Shown here: in pieces, positions 4,733 through 54,313 of the stretch
Layout of the letters: each line of letters opens with the position of its first letter
How positions within the stretch are numbered: position 1 is the stretch's first letter
From: a virus
Taxonomy: Duplodnaviria; Heunggongvirae; Uroviricota; Caudoviricetes
DNA length: 64,000 nucleotides
IMG/VR virus record: IMGVR_UViG_3300045988_138358
Reading direction: 5' to 3' (one strand)
Position numbers and translations under genes: made by a program
Notes under the pieces: generated by a model
Database searches by the model: none
Seen by the model: only the letters and a program-made list of their open reading frames with translations
Told to the model about the DNA's origin: nothing

Positions 4733-5477
4733 AGAGCACCCCCTTATTCGCTTCGAAAACTGCCTTTGCGAATCCATGTGGAGTAGCACTTCGAAAATTA
4801 GCCCTGTCAGGCCCTGGTGGCGCGGCATGGATTCTGTTATCTGGCTTGCCTAATGATTCGTCCATTAGGGCATCAGGCATGACAAAGCCCTGGCCGCTCC
4901 AGAGGCATGTTTTTTTTGTGTAGTTATCTTCCTGACAATATGCAGTGAAGAAGTAAGGGTGAAAGATGTGATCTGGCTTACGCCAGAATGTCGATATTTT
5001 GCTGACCGGATTTTCAATCATGTACGGACAACCGATCATCTTTGCAATGTCATAACACTGCCAGACAACCTGCATTGCTTTGAACTGGAAAACCGGATCT
5101 TTATTAGCCTTGTCCGAAAACCAGCGCGCGCCGGAAACAGCCAGGTCAGTACACGGTGGGAACCCGGCCAGAAACACGATGCGCTGCAAATTCTTACGGA
5201 GAAAAGCGTATACTTCATCGCTATCGATGATCGCACTAATACGCGTCAGAACGGCACCTGATTGCATCCGCTCGTCACTGGTCGATAAGTGCTGTGGATC
5301 GACGATAGCGGCATCGACACCGTATTCCAGCCAGGGGGCAACCATTGCCCCCGTAAAATCACAAAGACTCACAACAAGCTGTCGGTTATTATCGTTCTGC
5401 TTCACCGCCAATGGCCTCCACCAGCGCGTTAAACAGTGCAGATAATTCGCCCGTAAAGAGCACGAAATCAGCATCAA
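4725..5477 (-). CDS. C5-cytosine methyltransferase-like protein (short)
   Basis: FLAGFPPC (PC motif) and IENP (ENV-like) motifs; true start may be a GTG nearer the rdgC stop since the track start overlaps rdgC by about 90 nt. Confidence 0.55.
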
Positions 5478-6294
5478 ATCGTTGTGCTACATCCTCCCGG
5501 TCGATATCGTCGTTCTGGTCATAGAGATCATCACAGAATGTCAGGGCTTTGATACTCATATCATCGTTGACTCTGAACGACGCACGGTCCATCCAGTTAA
5601 TTGCAACGGTCGTAGCTACTTTCCCCGCCTCAATGTGAGACATAATCTCGTCGGACTGTAGATCAACTTTGTTGCAGCGAACGGCACCACCATTATCGAG
5701 CAGACCCTTTAATGTGGCGTCTTCACCTGCTGTAAATCCGGCAGGGAAGCCGCTTTTAAACCACTCGGTCATTGTAATTTCCAGCGGTTCGCGTGGTGTG
5801 AATGGAATGACAGGCAGGCTGCCGAGCGACTTTCGCAATAAAGCCAGCTGGTCCTCTGCCTTTTTGGCGCTGCTTGCCTCAACGAATACCAGATGGTTGC
5901 TGCGGTCGATCAGGATTTTGGCGAGTGATTTTCTCGTGAACGCGCGAGGCAAAAGTGAATGCAGGACTTCATCTTTAAGACTGTCTCTTTCCGTTTTCTT
6001 CAGCTTGCGGGCTTGCTCTTCTTCGAGTTTCAGGACTTTTTTCTGCAACTCTTCCTTGAGCACCTGCGAGGGGAGAATTTTTTCTTCTCGCTTATGCTGT
6101 ATTAGCAGAAAACCCTGGTATTCATGGGTGAGGTTGTCACCAAGAACAGGTGTCCAACCGACTTTAGCTGTGTCCTGAGAACCGCAAGGAGTAAACACGA
6201 ATTTGCTAAGAGCATCGGATACTTCTGCGGCACTCCAGTTAACTTCACGTGAAAGACGATAGATGAAGATGTTTTTGAAAGCGACTGATCTCAT
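5389..6294 (-). CDS. rdgC: recombination-associated protein RdgC
   Basis: Near full-length similarity to E. coli RdgC (YRLSRE..., [41 protein letters not shown] end). Confidence 0.85.
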
Positions 6295-6300
6295 GTTTCA

Positions 6301-6344
6301 CCAATTGTGTTAGAAAATTCTATTCAATTATCTAACACAATTGG
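6301..6344. promoter_or_regulatory. inverted pair of TGTTAGA operator-like half-sites upstream of rdgC
   Basis: CCAATTGTGTTAGA ... TCTAACACAATTGG, perfect 14-bp inverted repeat with 16-bp spacer, ending 7 bp from the rdgC start. Confidence 0.55.
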
Positions 6345-6353
6345 ATGTGTTTT

Positions 6354-7007
6354 CTATCCCTTCTTGAAATCAAAGTTGCTTGCGATGGCCTGGAAGGTGC
6401 CTCCAGCCTTGAAATCAATATTTTCGTCGGCTGTCACAGTAATGTTTTTGCCATTAACGCTGATGTTATCGGCTGATTTGACGTTAACACTCCCTCCCGC
6501 ATTCACTACTACATCAGCCGGACCAATGATGTATATCTGCCCTGATTCATTCATTCCAATCCTTGAGCCTGCTGCCGTATTCGCTATTTCATATCCACCG
6601 CCAGCCGTTCGCACTTCGAGCACATTGTTGCGGTGAATCACGAAATCTTTTGTCGCCGAAAATTGCGGGCGGGGAGGCGCTCCGTCTACTTCTGGTGGCG
6701 TCCAGCCGCTACCATTGCCTGACGCCTCCGGCGCGACGTTTGGTACTCCTCCAGGCGCATCCTGAGCTGCGCCAACTATCATTGGGCGTCTGGTATCAAT
6801 TCGACCATTAACATCCAGATAAGGAAACTCTACCCATACCAGGTCGCCTTTTACTGTAGGTACAAACGCGTTACCTATGGGTAACAGGTATTCTGCCCAG
6901 GGTAGATCGTCATCAGGAACGCCATTCCAGTCTGGTAAAACACGGACCTGAGCACGCATAAGCCCTGCCGGGTGCACAGTTCCAACAATTTGCGCTCTAC
7001 GCTTCAT
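6354..7007 (-). CDS. baseplate spike / gpV-like protein (putative)
   Basis: N-terminal region resembles the gpV OB-fold pattern (IVGTV...RVLP...GDLVWVEF); C-terminal short repeats (NVKSADNISVNGKNITV) typical of spike beta-structure. Confidence 0.45.
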   Translation of the reverse strand: MKRRAQIVGTVHPAGLMRAQVRVLPDWNGVPDDDLPWAEYLLPIGNAFVPTVKGDLVWVEFPYLDVNGRIDTRRPMIVGAAQDAPGGVPNVAPEASGNGSGWTPPEVDGAPPRPQFSATKDFVIHRNNVLEVRTAGGGYEIANTAAGSRIGMNESGQIYIIGPADVVVNAGGSVNVKSADNISVNGKNITVTADENIDFKAGGTFQAIASNFDFKKG

Positions 7008-7984
7008 TTGTTCGGCACTCCTAATATCATTCGTGTTGTGTAGCCTACGCGGTCTTCAAAGTGCGCAACATTTTTTACTATCAGCTTGCGGGGCATTGAT
7101 TCATCAATGCGGTTTTCCTGGTCATAGCGGTATACGATAATCTCTATTACCATTCCCGGTTTTATATCCGGATTGCCTGCGACTTCTATATCCATTTTGG
7201 GGACGAGAGACAGCTGCATATTGCGAAGAGTTTCCATATCAGAGTCGGATATATAACGCACTGGGAGTGAGCTATCGCCATATTCGACGTAGCCATCGGT
7301 CATGGAATACCCAACAAAACGATATTGATTCTTTGCTGTTGTCGCATGTTCCTGTTGGAGTAGGCGCATTTTGGACAAAGTGTATTCTGCTTTAGGGTTA
7401 TTCCCCTCGTAGGTAAATGATGGCGTTTGCTTCATCAGATCAGCCAGGGTGTAAAAGTTAAATTCCCCACGGCATACCCAACATAATGCACCTTTGTCTC
7501 GCGCTATCTGCGAGAGCATTTTTGACGGTTTGTCACCGGCATTCAGATGATATGTAACTGCGCGTTTTAGCACGCTGCTGGTAATTTTAAGCTTGCCGGA
7601 ATATGCCTTGAATATAGCGTCTGGTGTTTTGTTGGTATGTAAATTTGTGCGCGGGGAGGGGATCTTAAACCTGCGCACGTCTTCACTGACAGCAATAACG
7701 GTAACAACATCACCAGCCAGCATTGCAGACGTAACAAAGAAGTCTGTTTTAAAAGTGCCTGCATTACCGTTTGGATCGCCCATTTCAGCCACCAGCGATG
7801 CACCGTATTTGGCTTTCCAGTCATCAATTACAGTGCCGGTAGCGTCATGAATTTCCAGTTTTAGCAAAGGGGCTTTGAGGCTGGTTTTTTCTACATATAC
7901 TGCGGTAAAAATCCAGTCTCGTGGCACTTTGTTATCGTTAATGAGCACTGACTGTAGAAAATATTGTTGTAACTCCTGGGCCAC
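7004..7984 (-). CDS. hypothetical phage protein
   Basis: 326-aa ORF, stop overlaps next gene start; no recognised motif. Confidence 0.5.
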   Translation of the reverse strand: MAQELQQYFLQSVLINDNKVPRDWIFTAVYVEKTSLKAPLLKLEIHDATGTVIDDWKAKYGASLVAEMGDPNGNAGTFKTDFFVTSAMLAGDVVTVIAVSEDVRRFKIPSPRTNLHTNKTPDAIFKAYSGKLKITSSVLKRAVTYHLNAGDKPSKMLSQIARDKGALCWVCRGEFNFYTLADLMKQTPSFTYEGNNPKAEYTLSKMRLLQQEHATTAKNQYRFVGYSMTDGYVEYGDSSLPVRYISDSDMETLRNMQLSLVPKMDIEVAGNPDIKPGMVIEIIVYRYDQENRIDESMPRKLIVKNVAHFEDRVGYTTRMILGVPNK

Positions 7985-12973: not shown

Positions 12974-13166
12974 AACAAAGCCTCTCAGTCATAACCTGGG
13001 GGAAACTGTATGCAGGGTGTGAAATGCGAGAAACAGACAGGCCACCAGTTCAGGGGGATGTGGTTCATAAATCCCCTCACTGGTGACAAGTGACTTTCAT
13101 TAATCTTTATGCGGGGGCCAGCTTCATTTGCTGGCATTAGATTAAAAATTAAACGGAGTGAATAAC

Positions 13167-13955: not shown

Positions 13956-14223
13956 TGTCCTTCCTCCACGGATGACGGATACAAAAAAAGGCCGCACATG
14001 GCGGCCTGCTTTGGCGTTATGACTCCCTACCGCGCTTCGGCTGAAAGTTAATCGTCAAAAGAACCTTCAACGGGAGCCGTTAGCGCGATGGATTATGTGC
14101 AGTTTGTGATTTCCAAAATAGTGTCAACCACTTTTGGTGGATTTTATTTTTTAACCGAAATTTGGCCTAAATCATGTTTATGTAGTTAATTGTTTTTATA
14201 ACATAAAACTTCATTTTGTTTGC

Positions 14224-15260: not shown

Positions 15261-16146
15261 ACACCTTTAACCACGGAGATGCCGTTCCCTGCACGATAGC
15301 GGCGGGGAACGGAATTCTCCATCAGGTCACGAATTACTCCCGCCTCATGTAGTTCCACTGTTTCCCAGTATCTGTTTGTCACCAATTACGCCCCTTTCCG
15401 CCAGGGGAAGGTATGAACGAGCTTCTGCTTCGGTTGCAGCCATGACGCAGATATACAGGTGTTTTTGGCAGGAATAGAAACGCCAGATAAATTCAGAATG
15501 AGTTGGGGTGGGGATAGTAGCGATATTGGCAGCCTCCTTTGACTAAGTTAAGGAGCTACCGCGTGAGGTTCCAATCCCGGCACCCGTTTTTCTAAGGTGC
15601 CGTAGAAATATACCCCACGATAAGGCCAGGGCGCAAAAGTCAGTATTTTATGCTTTGGCGGATTTCTTCCGGGCTTGCTTGCAGGCGTAGGCCATTGCTT
15701 TAGCTTTCACTTCATCCAGCTTCCCGGTGATCACTTCTTTTCCGAGAGTGACAAACCAGTCATAGCAACCGCCAGTGATGTTCTGGATTTGAAAGTTGAG
15801 GTAGCGAACGGTCATTTTGACACCCCCAGCGCGAGTAAAGAATGCAGATTATCGCGTGAGTGGCGGACAACGAGTGATGGGAAAAGACAGTAGCTGTTCA
15901 TAGTGTAGTGACTCCTTGCTTTCGGAGCCGCCTTCGACTGTTCCACGGTCTGGTGGCGGCGCAATAAAGGCTGGAACACCGTGAGTCAACGGGGGCTTTT
16001 CAGCCACCTATATTGCACCGCCATAGGTATAGCGGCGGCAATAATACGAAAAACTAAACAGTTTGTCTCAAAAAGTTGACCGGTGTGCCAATCGGTAGTG
16101 AATGTACATCGGAGAAATTTACAATTCAACTTAAAATGTTAGAAAA

Positions 16147-16725
16147 CTAATTTATCAATTCAATCGCCATCTGATACAACGTCATTTCATCGGCATTGTG
16201 CCGCATGAAATCTGCTTTTCCGCCTATTTTTCCATCAGCATGAACAGGGACCAGCCAGGGATATTGTTCTCGGACCTCGGCTGGCGCTGCGTACTGGTGG
16301 TGCCATTTACACAAAGGGAGGACATATTTATGCGCGTTCTCTGCCGTTCTCCCGAAGATATGGTGCAGGGATACCACTGGGCTATGTTGCCCGTGAATAT
16401 GGCAGGCAATGCAGGGGAGAGTACCGATAGCGGTCTGTATCCGGCGTTCATCGGCTGTGAGTGATCTGCCCTTCAGGCCGCGTGACGTGCGTGTTTTTTT
16501 GGGCGGAGCGGATACCGCTTTATCTTTTCTCCGCTGTTCATATTGCTTTGCTTTTTCAATTTTCTTTTGCCGATATTCAGGCGATGCGGCTTTTTCTCTC
16601 GCTCGCTGCTGCTGGCGTTGAGCTTGTTGAAGGCGCTTTGCCCTTTGTTCCTCTCGCCAGGCTGGGTCAGCCAATTTTTGCATGGCTTTTTGTCTCTGTT
16701 TCTCCCAATAACTCTGTTTCTGCAT
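16147..16725 (-). CDS. ref: HNH-type endonuclease, Ref-like (recombination enhancement function)
   Basis: 192 aa; basic N-terminus then HNH-like core (LPCIACHIHG...SLHHI...LPLCKWHH); size and operator-linked promoter match P1 Ref. Confidence 0.5.
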   Translation of the reverse strand: MQKQSYWEKQRQKAMQKLADPAWREEQRAKRLQQAQRQQQRAREKAASPEYRQKKIEKAKQYEQRRKDKAVSAPPKKTRTSRGLKGRSLTADERRIQTAIGTLPCIACHIHGQHSPVVSLHHIFGRTAENAHKYVLPLCKWHHQYAAPAEVREQYPWLVPVHADGKIGGKADFMRHNADEMTLYQMAIELIN

Positions 16726-16770: not shown

Positions 16771-16806
16771 AATTGTTAGATATTCAAAATTGATTTTCTA
16801 ACACAA
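16771..16806. promoter_or_regulatory. inverted pair of TGTTAGA operator-like half-sites, divergent promoter region
   Basis: AATTGTTAGA ... TTTTCTAACAC with 16-17 bp spacer between the Ref-like gene and the plus-strand accessory operon. Confidence 0.55.
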
Positions 16807-20867: not shown

Positions 20868-20900
20868 TGTGTTAGATTGTTGATTTTAATTTTCTAACAT
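20868..20900. promoter_or_regulatory. inverted pair of TGTTAGA operator-like half-sites
   Basis: GTGTGTTAGA ... TTTTCTAACAT followed by TATTAT, upstream of the 20942 gene. Confidence 0.55.
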
Positions 20901-20941
20901 ATTATTTTACCGCTCGGAACAAAACAGAGTCGGTATGCATT

Positions 20942-21937
20942 ATGAGTGCAATAATCACCCCATATGTCGTAAATGAAACTGGTGTGGCTGTCTTTCCTGT
21001 AGATAAGCCCACCAGCAATTACATCGGCGCAGGCCGCCGTTTTCTTATCTCCCCATTGCCGCGCGAACAGGCTGAAAACACCCCTGATGGCGTCGTGGAC
21101 CTGAATTATTCCCTGGTTGCCAACCAGTCACTGACACCCTTTTTTCAAAGTGAGCGCGTATTTAATGCGTTAGGTGGCGAGGATTCTATCGTTCACTGGG
21201 TTAGCACCAACATTCACGATTGCCAGGCGCATGATAAGCGCGATTGTAGCCACCAGCTAACCACTCACTTCTATAACGGTTCTGCCGTTCGCCTGTGCTG
21301 GAAGCATGATGCGGAATACATGATGAAGGGGTACAGCAAGCTGGACGACCAGTTATCCCTGAATCGCGCCAACTGGGTTATGAACTGGGCTGCGAGCGAG
21401 TTAAAACTACCGCCAGAACGCGATCTGAGCATGGTTGAACTCACTTTTTGGGCCATTCGCCGGAATCTGAAAGATGAGCTGCCAGATGAAGCCGGGCGCA
21501 TTGCATTTTGTCAGCCAAAAACTGAAATCCCTACCGGTACGCTGAAAGAATCAGATATCACCTGGGAGCGCAGTACGCGCGAGCTGGTGGACATAACCGC
21601 AGAGCAGATCGTCAACCTGTCTGTAGATGAGGATTCTGGCCTCCTATATATGCGCCGTCCAAAAACCTTACTCGGAAAAAGCCCGGCTTATCTCCGCTTT
21701 GTGGTTTCTCGTCCGTGCATCGGATGCGGTGGCAAAGTTAACCACCCGTTCATGTACCGCGCCCGCTCGTTAAACGAACACGACCGCTGGGCTGTTCCTC
21801 TTTGCGATGACTGCGCCAGAAGCGCAGAAAACGATGTCCGGGCATGGGAAAAAGCACATGGCATACGCCTTTACGTAGCCGCTAACCAGCTTTTTGACTT
21901 CGCCATCGAGCGCGGAGTGATCACGTTCAATAACTGA
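20942..21937 (+). CDS. phage protein with C-terminal HNH-like Cys/His module
   Basis: C-terminal CIGCGGKVNHP...PLCDDCAR resembles the Cys/His core of the Ref-like protein at 16147-16725. Confidence 0.45.
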   Translation: MSAIITPYVVNETGVAVFPVDKPTSNYIGAGRRFLISPLPREQAENTPDGVVDLNYSLVANQSLTPFFQSERVFNALGGEDSIVHWVSTNIHDCQAHDKRDCSHQLTTHFYNGSAVRLCWKHDAEYMMKGYSKLDDQLSLNRANWVMNWAASELKLPPERDLSMVELTFWAIRRNLKDELPDEAGRIAFCQPKTEIPTGTLKESDITWERSTRELVDITAEQIVNLSVDEDSGLLYMRRPKTLLGKSPAYLRFVVSRPCIGCGGKVNHPFMYRARSLNEHDRWAVPLCDDCARSAENDVRAWEKAHGIRLYVAANQLFDFAIERGVITFNN

Positions 21938-29769: not shown

Positions 29770-30264
29770 TTATAACTTTTCGTACTGAAGCGGTGAACGC
29801 TTAATTTCAAAGTGGCCTTCCGATGTGCTACCAAAGCCACCAGCGCCTCGCTCTGTTTCATCGAGTTCATCAACTTCTACCAGCGATACCGGTTCAACAC
29901 GCTCAAAAATGCCTTGCATGACCGCCATTCCTGGCTTGAGGCAAACGCCTTCACCACCGGGATCTGTAATCAGTTTTGCCATGATTTCACCGCGATAATC
30001 GGAGTCGATAATTCCTACGCAGTTAGCCAGGCGAGTATGTTTTTTGCAGCCCAATCCGGAACGCGGATAGAGTTTCAGACACCAGCCGGGCGGGATCTCC
30101 ATAGCCAGTCCGGTGTACACCCACCAGCTTGAGGAAATTGCACCATTGCTATCGACACATGGTTTTATTTCAACAGCCTCAAAATCCATCGCCGCCGATC
30201 CGGAGGTGGCATAAGCTGGAAGTTTTGCTGCCGGATGTAGGCGTTTCACTTTTACGTAAATCAT
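29770..30264 (-). CDS. dut: dUTP diphosphatase (trimeric dUTPase)
   Basis: PRSGL, GIIDSDYRGEI and GGFGSTS motifs. Confidence 0.85.
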   Translation of the reverse strand: MIYVKVKRLHPAAKLPAYATSGSAAMDFEAVEIKPCVDSNGAISSSWWVYTGLAMEIPPGWCLKLYPRSGLGCKKHTRLANCVGIIDSDYRGEIMAKLITDPGGEGVCLKPGMAVMQGIFERVEPVSLVEVDELDETERGAGGFGSTSEGHFEIKRSPLQYEKL

Positions 30265-30737
30265 TGTTTTTTAGCTCTCTGCGTGAATGTGTAAACCCGA
30301 CGTTTGATATGTGGAACGGTAGGAACAGGAAGACAGGAACTTTCAATAACTCCTTGCTCCTCCAGCGATCGCACCGCCCGCAAGAACTGCGACGTGTCGC
30401 CGCCAAACTGGCGGGCATAGGTGCTGCCGTTATGAAGTATTTGAGCTATTACCCGAGCTTTTGTCTGGCTGTCACGATATGCGAATAGCCGCACGGCCTC
30501 TTCTGGCGCAATCGCTAACTGATAGCCTTTCCCGGCACGGTGTCGAATGAATCCATGCGCCAGTAGGTTTTTGAGTTCGTTACGAGTGCGAACAGATCCG
30601 TAACCCAGGAAGTGTGGATTGATAACGACTGGCTTAAACCATTCCGTAGGTGCTTTAGCTAATAGAGCTAACAGCTTCCCGGATAATTCTGGATAGGAAG
30701 ACGGGTAACAATTCAGAGATGGGTAATAAGTTTTCAC
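30261..30737 (-). CDS. hypothetical protein
   Basis: 158-aa ORF, 4-nt overlap with dut. Confidence 0.45.
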   Translation of the reverse strand: MKTYYPSLNCYPSSYPELSGKLLALLAKAPTEWFKPVVINPHFLGYGSVRTRNELKNLLAHGFIRHRAGKGYQLAIAPEEAVRLFAYRDSQTKARVIAQILHNGSTYARQFGGDTSQFLRAVRSLEEQGVIESSCLPVPTVPHIKRRVYTFTQRAKKQ

Positions 30738-31078
30738 CGACGCCCCCTTGCAGGATATCGACCGGCATTAGTATCCGGTGCAATAAAGCCGGTAGTGGGG
30801 CGAGTGAAAGCGAGATTAATCTTCTCGACCATAGTGCGATAATTTTCCTGATAGTGGGCCAGGAGTTTTTCGGCGGCAATGATGGTTACTTTCCGGACGT
30901 AGCTTTCTGCTTCCTCCAGATTTCGCCAGTTTTTTTCGAGGGTAAACACAGGGACGGCCTCAAGCCCGGTCATGATGCCGAACACAACGACAGCATGACT
31001 GTTCTTAACACCAGCGGCGAAGGTTACGGTGTAACCATCCACCTTGAAGCGTCTTGATTCCGTGATTTGACTCTGCAA
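30734..31078 (-). CDS. hypothetical protein
   Basis: 114-aa ORF; first gene after an operator-like motif at about 31137. Confidence 0.45.
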   Translation of the reverse strand: MQSQITESRRFKVDGYTVTFAAGVKNSHAVVVFGIMTGLEAVPVFTLEKNWRNLEEAESYVRKVTIIAAEKLLAHYQENYRTMVEKINLAFTRPTTGFIAPDTNAGRYPARGRR

Positions 31079-31151
31079 AGCACCCTCCTAAATAGGCGAG
31101 GGTACTTTACAGCAAAGACGTTAATCTAAAAAGATGTGTTAGAAATTTAAT

Positions 31152-32180
31152 TTACGAATCCATCAGGCGGCTATTAGCCCCCACAGACACGCCGCCACGG
31201 CGAAGATACCGCATAAGTGTTTCCGGTTTCTTCCAGGTTCCTTCCTGCATGATCTCCACCATAGACACCTGCTTTTCAGCCATATCAATAGCGGCCCCGA
31301 CGCGTGCACTATGCCCGGTCCACGTCCGGTATCTTCCTTTGTTTGGCGTAGCATCTCTTTTATTCAGCAACACCCAGGCGTCGCTGAATATTTTCTCCAT
31401 TGCAGGTGCAGTAAGGGGCGTTGTCGTGATCCTGGCCTTATTGCTACGGTGTATCGGCGGGAACAGCACTGCGTCAGGATGTTCGCGAAGCCCGGAAACA
31501 TCCAGCCAGTCATTCAGCACAGCGGTAGTGCGACGGGAAAGCACCTTATCAAGCCCGGCGGCGGTCGTTATTGTCTTCGTGTGTGAAATATGTAGCGTGA
31601 CAGTGTCACCTGTTTGGTCCAGATCTCCTACACGAATACGCGAGATTTCCGACATACGCATCAGCGTATTGTATGCAACAAAGAGAAAAGCCCGGTTGCG
31701 CAGGTCCACCAGCCGTTCTGACCTGGACAACAGGACGTCGAGCAGTTTCAGATCGTCCCACCGCAGCGGTATAGCCTGGCCTGTTCGTTCGCCTTTTTCA
31801 GTTGCCGCTTCGCGCCGGATGCGCCGCATAGCCAGAGAAACACTTTTATCATCCGAAAGTGGCGGAAGGCCACAATGCGAAAGCAGCATGTTCAGCATGG
31901 CGTAGTGCTTATCAATGGTGGTCGAAGCCAGATCGGCATCATGCAGCTGAAGAAAATACTCGCGGGCCATTTCTGGTGAGATCGGAAACCAGGCAAGCTG
32001 GCGAGCGTGACACCAGCGCGCCCAGGAATGAAACACCAAACGGAGGTCGCGCAGAGTATTCGGCGCATAAGCTCCCTGGTCATTCATGAACCGCATAAAG
32101 TTTTCTGCGGCTTCCTGGTACTCTTTGCCAATGTTGCGCAGAAAACCACCGGAACTGCCAGAGATAATTAATTCACTCAT
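31152..32180 (-). CDS. dre: Cre-family tyrosine recombinase, Dre-like
   Basis: Roughly 45% identity to P1 Cre by eye across the catalytic domain (SLAMRRIRRE, AYNTLMRMSEISRIRV, WTGHSARVGAA, LMRYLR); paired with a rox-like site. Confidence 0.9.
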   Translation of the reverse strand: MSELIISGSSGGFLRNIGKEYQEAAENFMRFMNDQGAYAPNTLRDLRLVFHSWARWCHARQLAWFPISPEMAREYFLQLHDADLASTTIDKHYAMLNMLLSHCGLPPLSDDKSVSLAMRRIRREAATEKGERTGQAIPLRWDDLKLLDVLLSRSERLVDLRNRAFLFVAYNTLMRMSEISRIRVGDLDQTGDTVTLHISHTKTITTAAGLDKVLSRRTTAVLNDWLDVSGLREHPDAVLFPPIHRSNKARITTTPLTAPAMEKIFSDAWVLLNKRDATPNKGRYRTWTGHSARVGAAIDMAEKQVSMVEIMQEGTWKKPETLMRYLRRGGVSVGANSRLMDS

Positions 32181-32332
32181 GAAACTATTTAACCTCTATA
32201 TACAGATGACGCTACGCGAAAAATATAAAAATGACAGGGTAGCTATAAGTTAATTTTCAAGATTCAAGCCTTTGATTCGATGCACGTATTTTCAGTGATG
32301 TCAATACTGATCATCTACCCATGATTATAGCC

Positions 32333-32364
32333 TAACTTTAAATAATGCCAATTATCTAAAGTTA
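32333..32364. other. rox-like recombination site (14-bp inverted arms, 4-bp spacer)
   Basis: TAACTTTAAATAAT-GCCA-ATTATCTAAAGTTA; differs at one right-arm position from the D6 rox site as recalled; 152 bp upstream of the recombinase start. Confidence 0.8.
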
Positions 32365-32565
32365 GAAATTTAGGAATTTTTTTCCTTTCCGCGCAGATGG
32401 GCAATGCATTGCTGGTGTGGGCTTTAAGTTATGCCTGGCAGTTTTTAAGCAGAATTTTCTAAATTGGATGATAAAAAAATGCATCTTGATCCTTTACTCA
32501 CCCTGTTATTCGGCATAGATTTGTCATAGTAATTTTATGTTAGAAAACTAAATCGAGTAGGAATA

Positions 32566-33603
32566 ATGAGTAAGAAGTCGATCGAGAAAGAGTACAAACG
32601 GTTCCTGCAAACCGCTGAACGGTGGAAAGAGCTGGTGGTCGCAAACTCTGTTTTCCATGATACCAGTTATTCCGGCGAGGAATTCCGCCATGTTGCACTA
32701 ACACATGATCAGAATGTGCTAGAAGAAGCTGAAAAGTGCCTCACAGAATGGAAAGCCTTTGTTGACTTGTGCCGTAACGCTGACGGCAAAGCGTCTAACA
32801 TTGTTGAGTCTGTATATTCTCCGATCCCATTCATTATCGAGGACACAAATCAAAGCACGCATATTGTTGTGCAAAGCGCGACCACCACCCGCTCATTTAC
32901 GCGCGAAAATCTGCTCAAAAAATATGATGCAATTATAAAGAAAAGCCTGAAAAACAAGATATTTTCGCAGATTGTTGGTGCACTTGAAGAAGAGCGCCGT
33001 TTTTTCGCATCAGAACCTGAAGGGGAAGTTTACCGGGCGCGCAAAGATGGATACACAGATGTAGTGCTTACAACAAACATTGAAGGCAGCAATGCTCTGT
33101 CACGATTCAGGGTAGGCGCACACGGAGCCTTAGTGTTCGCAAAACTTCCGAACACCACAGTGCCCGTTGTTAATAATGTCGGCGAACGTCGCAGCATTAC
33201 TATTTATTCTGGGGTTGAGTCGATACCTTGCGGCCTGCTTGGTGACTTTAGTCTCTATCGCGTTCGCGATCTGGAGAAACACCAACCAAGCTATGTTGCG
33301 AAGTCATACATCTTGCGAAACATCGACATCCGCAATGAGAGCTTAAAGAACAAATCAGCCAAAATGCTTGAGGAAGCCGATCCGGCTATTCGCCATATCA
33401 TTGAGCGTAAAATACAGACAGCACGCGAAGCGATGGCGAGACTGAATAAAATGGATCTGGAGTTGTTAGACGTAATGATGACATCCGGAGATGACCTGAC
33501 AGGCATAAAACTGACAGACGCGCGGAAAAGATACGGTAAAACCATAGAAGAACGTTACGGGTTCACTTTCTCCCAAACACAGCACGCCGCTAAACTCTGG
33601 TAA
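32566..33603 (+). CDS. hypothetical protein, candidate regulator
   Basis: 345 aa; an operator-like motif (TATGTTAGAAAACTAAAT) sits about 15 bp upstream of its ribosome-binding site. Confidence 0.45.
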   Translation: MSKKSIEKEYKRFLQTAERWKELVVANSVFHDTSYSGEEFRHVALTHDQNVLEEAEKCLTEWKAFVDLCRNADGKASNIVESVYSPIPFIIEDTNQSTHIVVQSATTTRSFTRENLLKKYDAIIKKSLKNKIFSQIVGALEEERRFFASEPEGEVYRARKDGYTDVVLTTNIEGSNALSRFRVGAHGALVFAKLPNTTVPVVNNVGERRSITIYSGVESIPCGLLGDFSLYRVRDLEKHQPSYVAKSYILRNIDIRNESLKNKSAKMLEEADPAIRHIIERKIQTAREAMARLNKMDLELLDVMMTSGDDLTGIKLTDARKRYGKTIEERYGFTFSQTQHAAKLW

Positions 33604-33674
33604 TCACAAGCCCCGCATTGCCGGGGCTTTATCCGGTGCGCCGTAAAACCCCGTCCTTCAGGGCGTGGAGGATG

Positions 33675-35183
33675 TCAAATATCCAGATCTGGCATTTCTA
33701 CATCTGCAAGAACCTGATCGCGGAAGGTAGCCATTTCAGCGCCGATATCTTCATTAGCAGGAACATAGTCCACCAGCATTGTAAAGCAGTAGGTATCCCA
33801 TCGGTCAGGTGATTTGATGTTCAGCTTTTGCCGCATGTGCTCCTTGCGCATCATCGCCATCTTCCCTTCTTCATTAAGTAAAAAGGGGATTTTTGACGCT
33901 TGCTCTGCCGTTTTAGGGTCGCTGTCTATTCGCATACGACCTGACTTTATGGCATCACGAGCCATAATATTTGCGTAGGCACGCTGGTTAACAAAACGCT
34001 CCTTGTCTTTGTTCGAAAACATGGGTTTCCCCCACCGAATCCGTACCGGATTAGCCCCACGGCGCACCAGCTGCGCACAGGTATCTGAACCAAAACCGTC
34101 TGCGTCAACCGCGATTGTAATATTCGGGTATTTATCCGGCGTGCATTCGTTGTATATAAAGTCAGCAAAAGCCAGCGGGTCCATAGTCCCTGGCATTTCC
34201 ATTACCTTAAAGTTAACAACACGCCGCTTTTCCCGGTGACCAGACACTTTACAGATATTAAGAACTGACTTGTCTCGCCCGTTACCAACGTCAGCAGTAG
34301 CCACCCATCCCCAGTTTTTCTCCAACAACACCTTGCGCCGCGCAGCGCGATCGCATTCATCACGACCAAGCAAATAGCCGTTAATCTCCCGAGGAAACTG
34401 ACCAAGAACCTTGACCATGTACTCAATAGAATCGCGCCCGCCATATTCTAGGAGTTTCTGCCTGATGAATTGTGGTGTGACGAACGGTGATTCTTCTGAG
34501 TTAAGAACAATTGCTGTCCAGATCCCTTTCGGGTTGTCTGGGGTTTTAGCTTGAGAATGGTGCGAATCGTAGAAATAACCACTTGGCCTTGTTGGCTGGG
34601 ATAGCATCAACATTCGGTTATCTTCTTCAGTCAGAGCGCCAGTCATTACGCCGATCGCTTTATCAGATATACCTGATGCTTCATCCAGAATTAGAAGCAA
34701 ATGTGCCGCGTGCTCCCCCGCCAGAGCTTCTTCGTTACCGAGTCGATAGCCTTTGCAGAGAACTTCCCAGATCCCCTTTCGAGAGCGTTCATAAAACATG
34801 GTGTCAGACAGGACAAAATAGGTCTGTAACCACCCATGACGCTTAACGGCATTCGCCCAATACTGTTTAACGTATTTGAATACACCTGTCTTAACCTGAC
34901 CTATTTTGTTAGCAACAATGATGACACGGGCATCGGGGAACAGAATCAAATAAATCAGCAACAACATAGCCGTTAGCGACGATTTCCCTGTACCGTGACC
35001 AGAGGTAACAGTGGTTCTGCTCCCTTTTTGCTGTACGGACTGGATAATCTCCTGCTGCTGGTGGGAGGGAAACATCCCGAATATATCAACAACAGCCTGG
35101 GTAAAGTTGTAGCGGTATTTGATTACCATATCGCGCCAGCGTGGATCGCTGGTGACGCATTTAATCTTGCGCCCACCAGCCAT
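33675..35183 (-). CDS. pacB: terminase large subunit (PacB-like)
   Basis: Walker A TSGHGTGKS, Walker B LLILDEASG, C-terminal Asp-rich nuclease-like domain. Confidence 0.85.
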   Translation of the reverse strand: MAGGRKIKCVTSDPRWRDMVIKYRYNFTQAVVDIFGMFPSHQQQEIIQSVQQKGSRTTVTSGHGTGKSSLTAMLLLIYLILFPDARVIIVANKIGQVKTGVFKYVKQYWANAVKRHGWLQTYFVLSDTMFYERSRKGIWEVLCKGYRLGNEEALAGEHAAHLLLILDEASGISDKAIGVMTGALTEEDNRMLMLSQPTRPSGYFYDSHHSQAKTPDNPKGIWTAIVLNSEESPFVTPQFIRQKLLEYGGRDSIEYMVKVLGQFPREINGYLLGRDECDRAARRKVLLEKNWGWVATADVGNGRDKSVLNICKVSGHREKRRVVNFKVMEMPGTMDPLAFADFIYNECTPDKYPNITIAVDADGFGSDTCAQLVRRGANPVRIRWGKPMFSNKDKERFVNQRAYANIMARDAIKSGRMRIDSDPKTAEQASKIPFLLNEEGKMAMMRKEHMRQKLNIKSPDRWDTYCFTMLVDYVPANEDIGAEMATFRDQVLADVEMPDLDI

Positions 35184-36547: not shown

Positions 36548-36936
36548 AAAGCAACACCACGCTTTTTAACGGCGGCATTCCACAGCTTATTCGCCATGTC
36601 CACCAGCTCTCGTTGCTCTTTTCGCGCCTGTTCGACTGATTTCCTGCTACAGTTTTTAACCAGTAAGCTACCGTATTCAGGGGTGCGCCCGCGCACCTTG
36701 AACTGATATCCGTTCAGGCCATGCAACCAGTATTTCCGTGGGTAAACACGATCATCAAGCTCACAAATAGCTCGGCTTGACCGCACAAAATGCCGAATGA
36801 TGTTGGTTACACTTACTCGTGAAACATGAAGGTGAGGATATTTTTCTTTAGCTAGAGTGGTGATTTCGGTGACTGTCAGATAGCAGTCAGCCCTAATCAT
36901 GATATCCGCAATTTCTGCGCTGCTGATATGCTCCAT
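36544..36936 (-). CDS. small HTH protein upstream of pacA, possible late-promoter activator (Lpa-like)
   Basis: 130 aa; first gene after an operator pair; assignment is by position only. Confidence 0.3.
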   Translation of the reverse strand: MEHISSAEIADIMIRADCYLTVTEITTLAKEKYPHLHVSRVSVTNIIRHFVRSSRAICELDDRVYPRKYWLHGLNGYQFKVRGRTPEYGSLLVKNCSRKSVEQARKEQRELVDMANKLWNAAVKKRGVAL

Positions 36937-37011
36937 TAATCCCCCAGGCAGGAAATGACCGAGGGGATGATAATGAGAATGTTATTTCTGTATAGACTGG
37001 CAAAAAGTTGG

Positions 37012-37046
37012 TTATATTAGAAAATTAATTCCATTCATCTAACACT
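37012..37046. promoter_or_regulatory. inverted pair of TGTTAGA operator-like half-sites upstream of the pac operon
   Basis: TATTAGAAAATT ... TCTAACAC; on the gene strand the distal half-site is followed by TATAAC. Confidence 0.55.
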
Positions 37047-37437
37047 ACCAGCGAGATAAGCGAACGACGTGTTTTACCTTAGCGATCCACTTACCACGTG
37101 AGTTATTAATTACGGCCTGCGCCACCTTTAAGCTGACTTCAAAATCAGCCTTACGACCATCAGAATCCACCAGCGTTGCACCGTCTATTTCCGGCAGGCT
37201 TAAATAATCCTGTTCTACCTCTAATGGCATTGACGGCTCTCTGAATGGTGTCAATTGCCGAGCTTTCCAGATAAAGCGAACTCTCAATCCCCTATAAGCC
37301 ATTACCATGTAGCCTGTTATCGTGCTCTTATGGCCTGCATCAGTACGCGCAGCATTACACGATACAATCTTACAGGTGACGATATTCCACTCCACGTTGG
37401 AGACTTCGTGAATGCTTAATTTTGTTGTCTCGTACAT
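37045..37437 (-). CDS. hypothetical protein
   Basis: 130-aa ORF. Confidence 0.4.
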   Translation of the reverse strand: MYETTKLSIHEVSNVEWNIVTCKIVSCNAARTDAGHKSTITGYMVMAYRGLRVRFIWKARQLTPFREPSMPLEVEQDYLSLPEIDGATLVDSDGRKADFEVSLKVAQAVINNSRGKWIAKVKHVVRLSRW

Positions 37438-38465: not shown

Positions 38466-38541
38466 TGGTGGCCCCTACCGGACTTGAACCGGTGACCGTG
38501 CGATTATGAGTCGCCAGCTCTAACCACTGAGCTAAAGGGCC
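38466..38541 (-). tRNA. tRNA-Ile (anticodon CAT, ileX-like; Met not excluded)
   Basis: Reverse complement folds as a canonical cloverleaf with anticodon loop CTCATAA and encoded CCA; very close to E. coli ileX as recalled. Confidence 0.8.
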
Positions 38542-39040: not shown

Positions 39041-39185
39041 GGCCGTTGTGGTGGCCGGTACTGAATCTCCGGCATACGGTGCAGCCAATTAGGACTACGG
39101 ACGATCACCGCTCGCGAAAGGGAAGATTTGCGGCCGCATTTCCCTAACATCCAAGAAAGCTATCGCATCAGTCTGCGAATCCACC

Positions 39186-39500: not shown

Positions 39501-39505
39501 TGTGT

Positions 39506-40242: not shown

Positions 40243-40899
40243 ATGCGGCACTCTCTCCGCCCGTCACCGCTCTGTCTCGGTTGTCGCGTTTGCCACGCCA
40301 GCCATAACGAGGTTTAAAGTCTTTGCACGTTTCCATCACTCGACTGCCGTCTGTGGCTGTTCGTTGCAGCGGGGGTGCCTCCCCCTGGGGATATCCCCGG
40401 CCTTACCCCATTCTTTCAAGACACAATGCAAGGCCGCATCCGCATAGGTGCATTACCGCAACATTAAGGAGACTTAGGGCAAAAGGTAATCGCCACAAAA
40501 AAATCCCTATGCCTCCTTAATGTTGAGGATGTGCATTGATGATGATTCGATGCGGCGAGTCCCGTTACTCTCTGCCGGACCATCATCAATGAACATCTTA
40601 AAAAGACCTTCCGTGGCTCAACATGTCTTGTCGTTTACTCCGTAAAGTGCTCTCTCTGAAACCACTTTACGCACTAAACCTGCTGAACTTTGGCTTGCTC
40701 GGTGCCAAAGCGAATCCCTGTATGCATGTAATTTTCTAACACTTTAATTTGTTATTTGCTGGTGGGCGAACAACAACCAATAAGTGACTATCAAGCCCAG
40801 CAAGCGAAATGTGGCAACGCTCCACCAGCAAGGAAAATTCTAAGTTAAGTTACTCTCACAATCAATATGTTCGTTTGGTGAAATTAGATTTCTAACACA

Positions 40900-42106: not shown

Positions 42107-42189
42107 ATTGCAGTTCCCATTGTTTTTGCAAAATTAGTTTTCTAACATATTTTATTAGTATGAGAACAAGATCGAAAGATGTGATAAAC

Positions 42190-42733: not shown

Positions 42734-43225
42734 TTAATCAAGACAAACATATTCCGTGATAGCTTTTATGGCTTCAGCGGCACTGCGCGCCTCAAAGCAG
42801 TAGTAACCTGCTTCGGTGAGGCGAGTCATCCAGACGAGTTGTTCGGGAGTCAGGCGATTTCTCCCATGTTTCATCTCAATGCGCATTCCGTGGTATCCCC
42901 CACAAGCAAGGTCTATAGAAAGATCGGGATATCCCTTCTTTTGGCCCTCTGCCACCATTTTTATTGCCGTCCTTATGCCTCGCAGACCGCCGTTTGGAGT
43001 GGCGTGTGTATGCTCATACACATAGCGCATATTGCGATACAACCAATCCAGGACGCGTACCTGCTCGTAATGCTCATGGTTCCTTTTGATTAGATCTGGG
43101 TTTTTCTCCAGTTCTCTGAGAGCTGCGGCATGTGGTGATGTTTCAGAATATTCACTGCGACGCCTTCTTTTTCTCGCTATTTTTCTAACACACCCATTGA
43201 TAGTAAATAAGCGAAATAATAACAA
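42734..43225 (-). CDS. VRR-NUC domain nuclease
   Basis: KGYPDLSIDLACGGYHGMRIEMKHGRNRLTPEQLVWMTRLTEAGYY fits the VRR-NUC core; the 5' end is uncertain because the frame opens on TTG. Confidence 0.55.
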   Translation of the reverse strand: MLLFRLFTINGCVRKIARKRRRRSEYSETSPHAAALRELEKNPDLIKRNHEHYEQVRVLDWLYRNMRYVYEHTHATPNGGLRGIRTAIKMVAEGQKKGYPDLSIDLACGGYHGMRIEMKHGRNRLTPEQLVWMTRLTEAGYYCFEARSAAEAIKAITEYVCLD

Positions 43226-53066: not shown

Positions 53067-53097
53067 ATTTAGAAACAGCAAATTAATTTTCTAACAC
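53067..53097. promoter_or_regulatory. operator pair and promoter for the icd/ant-like operon
   Basis: On the minus strand: TGTGTTAGAAAAT, 16 bp, TTCTAAAT, then TGTATGAT (extended -10-like). Confidence 0.5.
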
Positions 53098-53150
53098 AAA
53101 TTATCGGGCGAGCATTTTCCGATCATTGGGATGCTTTGTAGACACACAGG

Positions 53151-54207: not shown

Positions 54208-54313
54208 TGGCAGTCGCTACCGGAGCAGTGACCGCGATCCTACTCGATCACATCGGACAGGATCAACAGTGTATATAAATACACTATGTTAGAAATTTAA
54301 TTTCATGCAGCGG

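What the first reader, a model, noticed from the sequence alone, without database searches (positions are those of the whole stretch)
6301..6344. Genome-wide operator-like motif network (TGTTAGAAAAT, often as inverted pairs)
The same element recurs at more than ten promoter regions: inverted pairs at about 6301-6344 (rdgC-dcm-dam), 16771-16806 (Ref-like / accessory operon), 20868-20900, 37012-37046 (pac operon) and 53067-53097 (icd/ant-like); single copies at about 16137, 31137, 32538, 40735, 40884, 42140, 43184 and 54288 (repL-like). Paired sites have half-sites about 23 bp centre to centre, with a -10-like hexamer right after the second one. The motif sits before genes whose P1 counterparts (ref, the pac operon, ant, repL) are C1-repressed, and is absent before the lydA-darA late operon. 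It resembles the P1 C1 operator as recalled (ATTGCTCTAATAAATTT) without being identical, which suggests a diverged C1-type repressor regulon.
Basis: partly seen in the sequence, partly recalled or inferred. Interest (0 to 1): 0.65.

Follow-up and report, generated by a model that had tools for sequence, protein, structure and literature searches.

The report
Repressor operator network of D6-like prophage
A 19-bp asymmetric DNA motif found at 13 non-coding places in this D6-like plasmid prophage is almost certainly the set of binding sites of its master lysogeny repressor C1, the expected counterpart of the classic phage P1 system but with a different recognition sequence; the less expected result is that the repressor models as a Tus-like fold.

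Summary
The window is a phage D6-like plasmid prophage. TGTTAGAAAAT (≤1 mismatch) occurs 14 times against 1.5 expected. It extends to an asymmetric 19-mer, T[G/A]TGTTAGAAAA[T/C]TAA[T/A]TT.

There are 17 sites at 13 loci, all non-coding. Four loci hold inverted pairs with identical 15-bp register. The claimed fifth pair (53067-53097) is a single site. One site (14187, before mat) was missed.

- ORF 32566-33603 is C1: 90% identical to D6 C1 and a remote homologue (20%) of P1 C1.
- One site lies 12 bp before its ATG.
- The other loci map almost one-to-one onto the annotated P1 C1 operators (hrdC-dmt, mat, ref, lpa, pmgS, pmgM, c4-icd-ant, repL, tRNA leader).
- All sites are present in D6.
- A Citrobacter relative (C1 28% identical) carries CCTTAGAA at the same positions.
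- P1-type operators are absent, and similarity to the P1 consensus is no better than chance.

Binding itself is untested, and the D6 papers could not be read. Verdict: new member of a known kind, ordinary in concept.

One unexpected by-product: AlphaFold models of both D6-type and P1-type C1 match only E. coli Tus in the PDB (Foldseek E about 1e-8).

The parts
6306..6339 (.). Bivalent operator: 6306-6324(+) at 23.9 bits and 6321-6339(-) at 22.4 bits. It lies directly upstream of hrdC/rdgC-dcm-dam (5389-6294, -) and corresponds to P1 Odmt.
   Evidence: Promoter-like TAGAAA-18-GATAAT with its -10 inside the right half-site. P1 Odmt before uhr-hrdC-dmt. Orthologous pair in D6.
14187..14205 (-). 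Weaker single operator (TATGTTATAAAAACAATTA, 16.7 bits) in the divergent mat / simB-like intergenic region.
   Evidence: Conserved in D6, core 10/10. P1 Omat.
16135..16153 (+). Single operator (27.2 bits) overlapping the stop codon of ref, upstream of the next minus-strand genes. It points opposite to the direction of transcription.
   Evidence: Identical in D6.
16772..16805 (.). Bivalent operator: 16772-16790(+) at 16.8 bits and 16787-16805(-) at 28.4 bits. It lies between ref (16147-16725, -) and the rightward accessory operon that contains ppp. It corresponds to P1 Oref and Oppp.
   Evidence: TTGATT / TTGAAT -35-like hexamers in the overlap region (weak). P1 Oref and Oppp.
20868..20901 (.). 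Bivalent operator: 20868-20886(+) at 13.7 bits and 20883-20901(-) at 27.4 bits. It lies upstream of the pdcB-like/DUF968 gene (20942-21937, +).
   Evidence: The weak half diverges in D6 (core 6/10) while the strong half is kept (10/10).
31135..31153 (+). Single operator (29.4 bits) overlapping the stop of dre, upstream of the orf117-orf116-dut operon (-).
   Evidence: Identical in D6. A lineage-specific site sits at the same position in the Enterobacter and Citrobacter relatives.
32448..32466 (-). Distal, reverse-oriented weak site (CAATTTAGAAAATTCTGCT) about 100 bp before c1. Its TTCTAA core is invariant in all 8 relatives aligned.
32536..32554 (+). c1-proximal operator (TATGTTAGAAAACTAAATC, 26.7 bits). 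It ends 12 bp before the c1 ATG, just upstream of the Shine-Dalgarno sequence. Presumed autoregulatory site.
   Evidence: Invariant in relatives whose C1 is 71-100% identical.
32566..33603 (+). c1, the presumed binding protein (345 aa).
   Evidence: Annotated c1 in D6. 90% identical to D6 C1. 20% identity, E 6e-8, to P1 C1. phrog_1678, NF041318, PF27008. AF2 model pLDDT 85.
37013..37046 (.). Bivalent operator: 37013-37031(+) at 24.6 bits and a degenerate partner 37028-37046(-) at 8.2 bits. It lies upstream of lpa (36544-36936, -), the late-promoter activator, and corresponds to P1 Olpa.
   Evidence: lpa identified by PF25716. P1 Olpa. Lineage-specific site before lpa in Enterobacter and Citrobacter.
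40725..40743 (-). Single operator (22.4 bits) in the leader of a minus-strand non-coding/tRNA unit.
   Evidence: tRNAs at 38466-39660(-).
40881..40899 (-). Single operator (28.3 bits) that ends one base before the pmgS stop codon (pmgS 40900-42120, -), at the head of the tRNA-containing unit. It is followed by TTGATT-17-TAGAAT. Functionally comparable to P1 Oban, which precedes the P1 tRNAs.
   Evidence: P1 Obanab followed by tRNA genes.
42131..42149 (-). Single operator (29.1 bits) 11 bp upstream of pmgS (40900-42120, -). It corresponds to P1 OpmgR.
   Evidence: Identical in D6 although the flanks are only 83% identical. P1 OpmgRa/b.
43174..43192 (-). Single operator (16.7 bits) downstream of a TTTACA-16-TATTAT promoter-like site and upstream of the pmgM/VRR-NUC gene (42735-43043, -). 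It corresponds to P1 O26 (Op82).
   Evidence: Gene start taken from the PGAP annotation of pTB423. P1 O26.
53080..53098 (-). Single operator (perfect consensus, 30.8 bits) upstream of the c4 antisense RNA-icd-ant immunity module. It corresponds to P1 Oc4 (Op51). It is not a pair.
   Evidence: C4 RNA at 52784-52869(-) and c4-a1b1 at 52938-52990(-). P1 Oc4 overlapping the -35 of P2c4.
54285..54303 (+). Single operator (28.9 bits) between the pro stop and repL (53151-54113, -). It is the positional counterpart of P1 OrepL. It lies 172 nt from the repL ATG, with a terminator-like hairpin in between.
   Evidence: The D6 copy has one core change. The Citrobacter counterpart is at the same position.

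Best explanation
The motif is the operator of the element's own C1 repressor (32566-33603).

Inferred by analogy with P1: C1 binds each asymmetric 19-bp site, T[G/A]TGTTAGAAAA[T/C]TAA[T/A]TT, as a monomer. At four promoters two sites are placed tail to tail with a fixed 15-bp offset, forming bivalent operators.

In the lysogen, bound C1 would occlude the -35/-10 region of early promoters or sit as a roadblock just downstream of them. This would silence:
- lytic replication (repL);
- the antirepressor module (c4-icd-ant);
- the late-gene activator lpa, and through it all late operons, which carry no site themselves;
- ref, hrdC-dcm-dam, mat, pmgS, pmgM, a tRNA unit and two accessory operons.
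The site 12 bp before the c1 ATG would autoregulate c1.

Shown here: the motif, its statistics, its non-coding placement, its fixed pair geometry, its conservation, the presence of a C1 homologue, and the positional match with the P1 regulon.

Inferred, not shown: that C1 is the binder, the stoichiometry, and repression of each promoter.
For: (1) Enrichment and placement. 14 against 1.5 expected and 13 against 0.87 expected. 17 sites of at least 13 bits, all non-coding, p=4e-15. The motif words are the top intergenic 8-mers.

(2) A C1 homologue is encoded in the window, with a strong site immediately before its start codon.

(3) Positional match with the operators annotated in the P1 record.
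- P1 operators: Odmt, Omat, Oref, Oppp, Olpa, OpmgR, O26, Oc4, OrepL, Oban-tRNA, Oc1.
- Window sites: before hrdC-dcm-dam, mat, ref, the ppp operon, lpa, pmgS, pmgM, c4-icd-ant, repL, the tRNA leader and c1.

(4) Same architecture as in P1: an asymmetric site, either monovalent or as inverted overlapping pairs with the 5' heads outward (P1 Obanab; window pairs).

(5) All 17 sites have orthologues in phage D6. Core identity is 163/170 against 1854/2041 in the flanks (p=0.023). The strong sites are kept, the weak partners drift.

(6) Co-variation with the repressor.
- Relatives with C1 71-100% identical keep TATGTTAGAAAAC before c1.
- An Enterobacter element (C1 42.5%) has [TA/AT/CG]TTAGAAAA heads after the recombinase, before c1 and before lpa.
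- A Citrobacter element (C1 28%) has CCTTAGAA 9 times in one half of the plasmid (1.15 expected, 0 in the other half). The copies lie before rdgC, ref, c1, lpa and repL, and after the recombinase and pmgS.

(7) P1-type and D6-type operators are mutually exclusive, as expected for distinct immunity specificities.

(8) The orientation relative to the downstream gene is not fixed: 3 of 9 single sites are reversed. This fits an operator and not a promoter element.
Against: - No binding or expression data exist here.
- Promoter predictions around the sites are weak. The strict scan finds a promoter overlapping the site only at hrdC, and counts are not above shuffles. The occlusion or roadblock assignment for each site is therefore tentative.
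- The repL site is 172 nt from the gene, with a terminator-like hairpin between them.
- Conservation relative to D6 is only modestly above the flanks, because the genomes are close.
- The P1 accessory proteins Lxc and Coi were not found, so the circuit may differ from P1.
- The operator sequence is not significantly similar to the P1 consensus. The link to C1 rests on position and on protein homology, not on sequence resemblance.
Confidence: 0.85

Rival explanations
1. The sites are operators, but for a different DNA-binding protein of the element or of the host (for example another phage regulator, or a nucleoid protein that prefers AT-rich DNA), not for C1.
For: No binding data exist. The motif is AT-rich. 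The window encodes other small regulators, such as HigA-type proteins and a 'DNA-binding protein' in the accessory operon. Lxc and Coi homologues were not detected, so the P1 analogy is incomplete.
Against: - The loci coincide with the P1 C1 regulon, including c1 itself, lpa, repL and c4-ant.
- The head of the motif changes between lineages in step with C1 divergence while the positions are kept. A host protein would not predict that.
- The information content is concentrated in a G-containing 10-mer. It is not a generic AT preference.
Confidence: 0.08
2. The motif is a promoter element recognised by RNA polymerase or by an activator, rather than a repressor site. Candidates are an extended -10-like box, or the Lpa-dependent late-promoter box.
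For: TAGAAAAT and GATAAT inside the motif resemble a -10 hexamer. At hrdC the only promoter-like match uses it.
Against: - The orientation relative to the downstream gene is not fixed, and four loci are inverted pairs.
- The motif stands before early/immunity genes and before lpa itself. It is absent from every structural and lysis operon.
- P1 late promoters use a different box (ACAAGTGACT-type). That box has only two matches in the window.
Confidence: 0.04
3. The repeats are non-functional: chance AT-rich similarity, or remnants of recombination between modules.
For: At 2 mismatches the 11-mer is no longer enriched: 60 against 59 expected.
Against: - 14 against 1.5 expected and 13 against 0.87 expected at stricter thresholds.
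- Exclusively non-coding placement, p=4e-15.
- Identical 15-bp register in four pairs.
- Retention in D6 and, with a changed head, in distant relatives at the same positions.
Confidence: 0.02

Closest known systems
Phage P1/P7 C1 repressor and its dispersed operators (immC; Op2...Op99, renamed Oref, Omat, Ossb, Oc4, OrepL, Odmt, Oban, O26, Oppp, OpmgR, OpmgT, Olpa, Oc1)
   Same: - One master repressor of the same protein family.
- More than a dozen asymmetric 17-19-bp operators scattered over a ~90-kb plasmid prophage.
- Mono- and bivalent forms, the bivalent ones being inverted, overlapping and with 5' heads outward.
- The same target genes: c1, lpa, repL, c4-icd-ant, ref, mat, hrdC-dmt, pmgR/S, pmgL/M and a tRNA leader.
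- Late genes controlled only indirectly, through lpa.
(background in PMC8546580.)
   Different: - The operator sequence is unrelated at the level of statistics: 0 P1-type sites in the window, and consensus similarity p about 0.8.
- C1 is only 20% identical and is 62 aa longer.
- Bivalent spacing is a 15-bp offset over 34 bp, against 11 bp over 28 bp in P1 Obanab.
- The c1-proximal operator abuts the ribosome-binding site.
- No Lxc or Coi homologue was detected.
- No operator before an ssb or ban gene.
Phage D6 (MF356679 / NC_050154; immC region AY753669)
   Same: The window is a close relative: roughly 82-99% DNA identity around the sites, and C1 90% identical. Every one of the 17 sites has an orthologue in D6. 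This is the same regulon.
   Different: - The three D6 records annotate c1, rox and cix but no operator.
- Tails and weak partner sites differ in sequence.
- D6 has at least one further site, at 54201-54217, in a region outside this window.
- Whether the D6 papers (Gilcrease & Casjens 2018; Sauer & McDermott 2004) list the operators could not be checked, because neither is held.
E. coli Tus-Ter (replication terminus site-binding protein, PF05472)
   Same: - Tus is a monomer that binds an asymmetric site and autoregulates its own gene through such a site (PMC10331603). P1 C1 operators are likewise asymmetric (PMC8546580).
   Different: - No sequence similarity: hmmsearch finds none and hhalign gives probability 0.3.
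- TM-scores are only 0.35-0.43.
- Ter and the operator are not significantly alike.
- Tus arrests replication forks. Nothing here shows that C1 does.

Membership tests
P1-type C1 repressor/operator regulon (immC) | Encodes a C1-family repressor | tested here: met
   Window 32566-33603. BLASTP against P1 C1 gives 20% identity over 239 aa, E 6e-8. Both proteins fall in phrog_1678. NF041318 phage_rep_C1 scores 23 bits, E 3.8e-5, far below its 500-bit equivalog cut-off. Homologues carry PF27008. This is a remote member, not an equivalog.
P1-type C1 repressor/operator regulon (immC) | Many dispersed copies of one asymmetric 17-19-bp operator in promoter/non-coding regions | tested here: met
   17 sites at 13 loci, all non-coding. 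The information profile is asymmetric.
P1-type C1 repressor/operator regulon (immC) | Operators match the P1/P7 consensus ATTGCTCTAATAAATTT | tested here: not met
   0 matches with up to 3 mismatches in the window, against 14 in half of P1. Consensus-to-consensus similarity is 9/17, p about 0.8. The element therefore has a different immunity specificity.
P1-type C1 repressor/operator regulon (immC) | Operators precede the same functional set of genes (c1, lpa, repL, c4-icd-ant, ref, mat, hrdC-dmt, pmgR/S, pmgL/M, tRNA/ban leader) | tested here: met
   P1 protein_bind features compared with the window sites and their flanking genes.
P1-type C1 repressor/operator regulon (immC) | Bivalent operators made of two inverted, overlapping sites | tested here: met
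   Four pairs with an identical 15-bp offset. P1 Obana/Obanb have the same orientation, but an 11-bp offset.
P1-type C1 repressor/operator regulon (immC) | C1 physically binds the sites and represses the adjacent promoters | not testable with these tools
   Needs EMSA or footprinting, ChIP, or RNA-seq of lysogens.
P1-type C1 repressor/operator regulon (immC) | Accessory modulators Lxc (co-repressor) and Coi (C1 inactivator) | tested here: inconclusive
   The ORF in the Lxc position (43365-43625) has no similarity to P1 Lxc. No coi-sized ORF lies between dre and c1. Small, fast-evolving proteins could be missed.
P1-type C1 repressor/operator regulon (immC) | immI module (c4 antisense RNA-icd-ant) under a C1 operator | tested here: met
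   Rfam C4 (71.9 bits) and c4-a1b1 (52.2 bits) lie downstream of the site 53080-53098.
Tus/Ter family (PF05472, TIGR02648) | Sequence membership in the Tus family | tested here: not met
   No Pfam hit in the local library. hmmsearch of the C1 profile against PDB sequences finds nothing. hhalign against E. coli Tus gives probability 0.3. NCBIfam finds Tus models only for Tus itself.
Tus/Ter family (PF05472, TIGR02648) | Tus fold | tested here: inconclusive
   [not shown]
Tus/Ter family (PF05472, TIGR02648) | Ter-like recognition sequence | tested here: not met
   Best match of operator variants to TerB (read) is 13/19 with a gap, p 0.12-0.19.
Promoter element (sigma-70 -10 box or Lpa late-promoter box) | Fixed orientation and distance relative to the transcribed gene | tested here: not met
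   Three single sites are reversed relative to the downstream gene and four loci are inverted pairs. Distance to the start codon ranges from 11 to about 170 nt. The motif is absent from the late operons.

The most novel reading that the evidence does not exclude
The C1 master repressors of P1-like and D6-like phage-plasmids (PF27008) share the fold, and possibly the ancestry, of the replication terminator Tus. On this reading C1 is a monomeric clamp that reads a long asymmetric site. That would explain the long-known oddity that C1 operators are asymmetric and that C1 has no recognisable helix-turn-helix. It would also tie the narrowly distributed, origin-unknown Tus-Ter system of Enterobacterales to a repressor of enterobacterial plasmid prophages. 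A corollary worth testing is that C1-operator complexes act as polar barriers to replication or transcription.
Probability: 0.45. Interest if true: 0.75.

Novelty: new member of a known kind. Interest (0 to 1): 0.4.

Why it matters
The operator network itself gives a concrete, testable map of the lysogeny regulon of D6-like phage-plasmids. These are common in E. coli, Salmonella and Shigella: the C1 search alone matched 155 plasmid records. The GenBank records of D6 do not annotate these sites.

The map defines an immunity specificity distinct from P1. With the Enterobacter and Citrobacter variants, it also suggests that two bases in the operator head (TG, CC or others before TTAGAA) distinguish the lineages. 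That is useful for predicting superinfection immunity and for building orthogonal repressor/operator pairs.

Conceptually it is what a P1 specialist would expect. The part that could matter more is the by-product. If the Tus-like fold of C1 holds, it gives a structural mechanism for monomeric recognition of asymmetric operators. It also gives a candidate relative for Tus, whose origin has been proposed to lie in plasmids (PMC10331603).

Tried and rejected
- Literature. The D6 genome paper (PMC5800970, DOI 10.1016/j.virol.2017.12.019) and the pac-c1 comparison paper (PMC534624, DOI 10.1093/nar/gkh941) are not held. Full-text searches for the motif string, for 'D6-like'+operator and for 'phage D6'+operator/repressor found nothing relevant. 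I therefore cannot say whether the operators were published.
- Fifth inverted pair at 53067-53097: rejected. The partner scores -6.7.
- Weak hits at 32351-32376 as extra c1-region operators: rejected. They are the right arm of rox, 32333-32364.
- Site 43174 'inside coding sequence': rejected. It lies inside only the longest TTG-start ORF, and PGAP starts the gene at 43043.
- Sequence homology between the D6-type and P1 operators, in either orientation: not above chance. A shared TTAGA core in the reverse complement of the P1 consensus is noted but unproven.
- Ter-like sequence in the operator (TATGTT...AACTAA): not significant.
- Lxc homologue next to ulx: no similarity. Coi: no ORF.
- P1 late-promoter box as an alternative identity of the motif: the P1 box is a different sequence and is nearly absent from the window. 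TGTGATTT, another recurrent intergenic word, showed no consistent context.
- Sequence-level link between C1 and Tus: none. The Tus homologues returned were all at least 81% identical, so no useful Tus profile could be built.
- Strict promoter scans around the sites were mostly negative.
Full report
WHAT THE WINDOW IS. The window is a plasmid prophage of the phage D6 type.
- Positions 30001-38000 align with the D6 immC region (AY753669) at 91% identity and with the D6 genome at 89%.
- Positions 1-25000 align with dozens of ~90-kb E. coli, Shigella and Salmonella plasmids at 95-97%.
- The D6 records name the ORF at 32566-33603 c1, 'similar to the C1 repressor of phage P1'.
- None of the three D6 records annotates an operator.

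THE OBSERVATION. TGTTAGAAAAT with up to one mismatch occurs 14 times against 1.52 expected, and no shuffle reaches 14. With two mismatches the 11-mer is no longer enriched, so the signal lies in a defined set of good sites.

Aligning those sites shows that the motif is longer and asymmetric: T[G/A]TGTTAGAAAA[T/C]TAA[T/A]TT. It has a nearly invariant head, TGTTAGAAAA, and a less constrained AT-rich tail. As a 17-mer with up to 3 mismatches it occurs 13 times against 0.87 expected.

A PWM gives 17 sites of at least 13 bits at 13 loci.
- Sixteen lie in the 10.6% of the window left uncovered by a deliberately greedy ORF map (p=4e-15).
- The seventeenth (43174) lies only inside the longest TTG-start version of pmgM. 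PGAP starts that gene 131 nt further down.
- The motif's 8-mers are the most widely distributed intergenic words of the window.

PAIRS. Four loci (6306-6339, 16772-16805, 20868-20901, 37013-37046) carry two sites in inverted orientation.
- The heads point outward and the tails overlap.
- The offset is always exactly 15 bp, spanning 34 bp in all.
- One half is usually strong and the other weaker.
The partner position scores -6.7.
- The '-10 hexamer right after the second half-site' is seen at 16812 (TAATAT) and 20900 (TATTAT), and loosely at lpa. It is not seen at hrdC, where the pair ends 11 nt before the ATG and the only promoter-like match places its -10 (GATAAT) inside the operator.

- 14187-14205, before mat.
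- A weak reverse-oriented site at 32448-32466, whose TTCTAA core is invariant in eight relatives.
- Weak hits at 32351-32376 are simply the right arm of the rox site, 32333-32364.

WHY C1. Four lines of evidence point to C1.

(a) The window ORF is 90% identical to D6 C1. It is a remote but real homologue of P1 C1: 20% identity over 239 residues, E 6e-8; the same PHROG; NF041318 at 23 bits; PF27008.

(b) A strong site ends 12 bp before its ATG.

(c) The P1 GenBank record annotates the experimentally defined C1 operators. Their targets match the genes flanking the window's sites almost one for one:

| P1 operator | P1 target | Window site |
|---|---|---|
| Odmt | uhr-hrdC-dmt | 6306-6339 |
| Omat | mat | 14187 |
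| Oref | ref | 16772-16805 |
| Oppp | the operon ending in ppp | same pair, rightward |
| Olpa | lpa | 37013-37046 |
| OpmgRa/b | pmgR/S | 42131 |
| O26 | pmgL/M | 43174 |
| Oc4 | c4-icd-ant | 53080 |
| OrepL | kilA-repL | 54285 |
| Obanab | unit containing tRNA genes | 40881 and 40725 |

For 53080, the C4 RNA and its a1b1 targets were found by Rfam just downstream. For 40881 and 40725, the sites head a minus-strand non-coding stretch with four tRNAs. No site precedes any structural or lysis operon. This fits control of late genes through lpa alone.

(d) P1 also has monovalent operators and one divalent operator built exactly like the pairs here: + site then - site, with overlapping 3' ends. 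Its offset is 11 bp rather than 15 bp.

COMPARATIVE TEST.
- Every site has an orthologue in D6. The 10-nt core is 163/170 identical against 1854/2041 for +/-60-nt flanks (Fisher p=0.023). The strong sites are essentially invariant, for example 42131 is 19/19 in flanks that are 83% identical. The weak partners drift.
- Plasmid databases hold C1 variants at about 100, 90, 81, 71-73, 42.5 and 27-28% identity.
- In the 71-100% group the c1-proximal operator is unchanged.
- The Enterobacter element (42.5%) has TATATTAGAAAAC before c1, TTATTAGAAAATG after the recombinase gene and TTCGTTAGAAAATTAATGC before lpa.
- The Citrobacter element (28%) has no TGTTAGAAAA network. Instead it has CCTTAGAA 9 times in one half of the plasmid (1.15 expected) and none in the other half. 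Those copies lie before rdgC, ref, c1, the lpa-like gene and the repL-like gene, and right after the recombinase and pmgS-like genes. Their tail is TTnAnGTWATTT.
- So the positions are conserved, the TTAGAA core is conserved, and the two bases before it change with the repressor lineage. This is the pattern expected of the repressor's own operators, and it is hard to reconcile with a host factor.
- P1-type operators are absent from the window. D6-type operators are absent from P1.

HOW IT PROBABLY WORKS (inferred). This is by analogy with P1, where C1 binds 22 dispersed operators with the asymmetric consensus ATTGCTCTAATAAATTT and thereby represses repL, lpa and other lytic functions (PMC8546580).
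- At the pairs, the -35-like hexamers (TTGATT, TTGAAT) fall in the tail-overlap region and the -10 follows or overlaps the second head. Two bound monomers would then cover the promoter.
- At c4-icd-ant the site overlaps a -35-like TTTGCT, as Oc4 overlaps P2c4 in P1. A second promoter-like site, about 70 bp downstream (TTGATC-17-TATATT), lies outside it, like P1's constitutive P1c4.
- At c1, pmgS and pmgM the site lies between a promoter-like match and the start codon, acting as a roadblock or autoregulatory site.
- These promoter assignments are weak. The strict scanner finds little above shuffles.
- The repL site is 172 nt from the gene, with a terminator-like hairpin in between.

RIVALS.
- Another regulator is possible but is not supported by the lineage co-variation.
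- A promoter element is excluded by the variable orientation and by absence from the late operons. The P1 late-promoter box is a different sequence.
- Chance is excluded by the statistics.

COMPARISON WITH WHAT IS KNOWN. The system works like, and belongs to the kind of, the P1 immC regulon. It fails one defining feature of the P1/P7 immunity group, the operator sequence: 0 hits, and consensus similarity of 9/17, p about 0.8. It is therefore a distinct specificity class, not a P1 operator set. What is shared is the architecture. Lxc and Coi were not found.

AN UNEXPECTED BY-PRODUCT. C1 has no hit in the local Pfam library and none in PDB sequences.
- An AlphaFold2 model of the window C1 (pLDDT 85) matches only E. 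coli Tus-Ter complexes in the PDB by Foldseek: E 9.5e-8 to 5.6e-6, probability 1.00, about 303 aligned columns. The next hit is at E 0.09.
- A second model, of a P1-type C1 that is 20% identical to the window protein, gives the same result: four Tus chains at E 1.9e-8 to 6.2e-8, next hit 0.12. Its alignment did include D6-type sequences, so the two models are not wholly independent.
- Cautions: TM-scores are only 0.35-0.43 and there is no sequence-level signal. The operator is not significantly Ter-like.
- Tus is a monomer that binds an asymmetric site and represses its own gene through one. It is confined to Enterobacterales and a few neighbouring groups, and has been proposed to derive from plasmids (PMC10331603).
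- No paper in the searchable library mentions both Tus and the C1 repressor.
- I treat this as a lead with roughly even odds.

VERDICT. The finding is a new member of a known kind and could be already known if the D6 papers list the sites. Interest is moderate to low for the network itself and higher for the possible C1-Tus relationship.

Noticed in passing
[not shown]
   Followed up: partly
L016 (Citrobacter portucalensis plasmid NZ_CP099371, 42001-84106) and L008 (Enterobacter plasmid NZ_CP074151): Distant relatives carry the same kind of network at the same gene positions but with a different operator head. The Citrobacter element (C1 28% identical) uses CCTTAGAA(TTnAnGTWATTT). The Enterobacter element (C1 42.5%) uses [TA/AT/CG]TTAGAAAA. 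TTAGAA is the common core, and the two bases before it look like the specificity determinant.
   Followed up: partly
L002 (phage D6 MF356679) 6084-7850; window 38466-39660: The D6 GenBank record places its three tRNA genes on the + strand. ARAGORN places them on the - strand and finds a fourth, unannotated tRNA-Met(cat) at 6084-6159. In the window, ARAGORN and Rfam also place the homologous genes on the - strand. The window has tRNA-Arg(tct) where D6 has tRNA-Asn(gtt).
   Followed up: partly
window 32333-32364 and 32324-32356: The rox site of the Dre recombinase is present (TAACTTTAAATAATGCCAATTATCTAAAGTTA). It is overlapped by the best sigma-70-like promoter of the dre-c1 intergenic region (TTGGCA-16-TATAAT, 11 of 12 matches), which points towards dre. 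The right arm appears to carry a C where I recall the published rox having a T; this was not checked.
   Followed up: no
window 54114-54313: Several structures lie between the operator at 54285-54303 and the repL start: a palindrome (AGTGTATTTATATACACT), a second inverted repeat, and a strong bidirectional terminator-like hairpin (54176-54199). The leader of repL therefore looks more complex than a simple operator-promoter arrangement.
   Followed up: no
window 43365-43625 (-) and 32181-32565: The ORF in the position of P1 lxc (next to ulx and darB) has no similarity to Lxc and belongs to a PHROG of unknown function (phrog_6844). No coi-like ORF lies upstream of c1. The co-repressor and anti-repressor layer of P1 may be missing or replaced.
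   Followed up: partly
L004/L007 8201-8217 (phage D6 54201-54217): D6 has a further motif copy (TGTTAGAAAACCAAAAT) between the major capsid gene and orf52. This is a part of the genome not covered by the window, so the complete element probably has at least 14 operator loci.
   Followed up: no
window 13086-13106 (+): This is the only good match in the window to the P1 late-promoter box plus -10 (ACAAGTGACTTTCATTAATCT). It lies in the gp26/mat intergenic region, where P1 has LP26/LPpmgL. The other late operons lack it, so the Lpa box of this lineage probably differs from that of P1.
   Followed up: no
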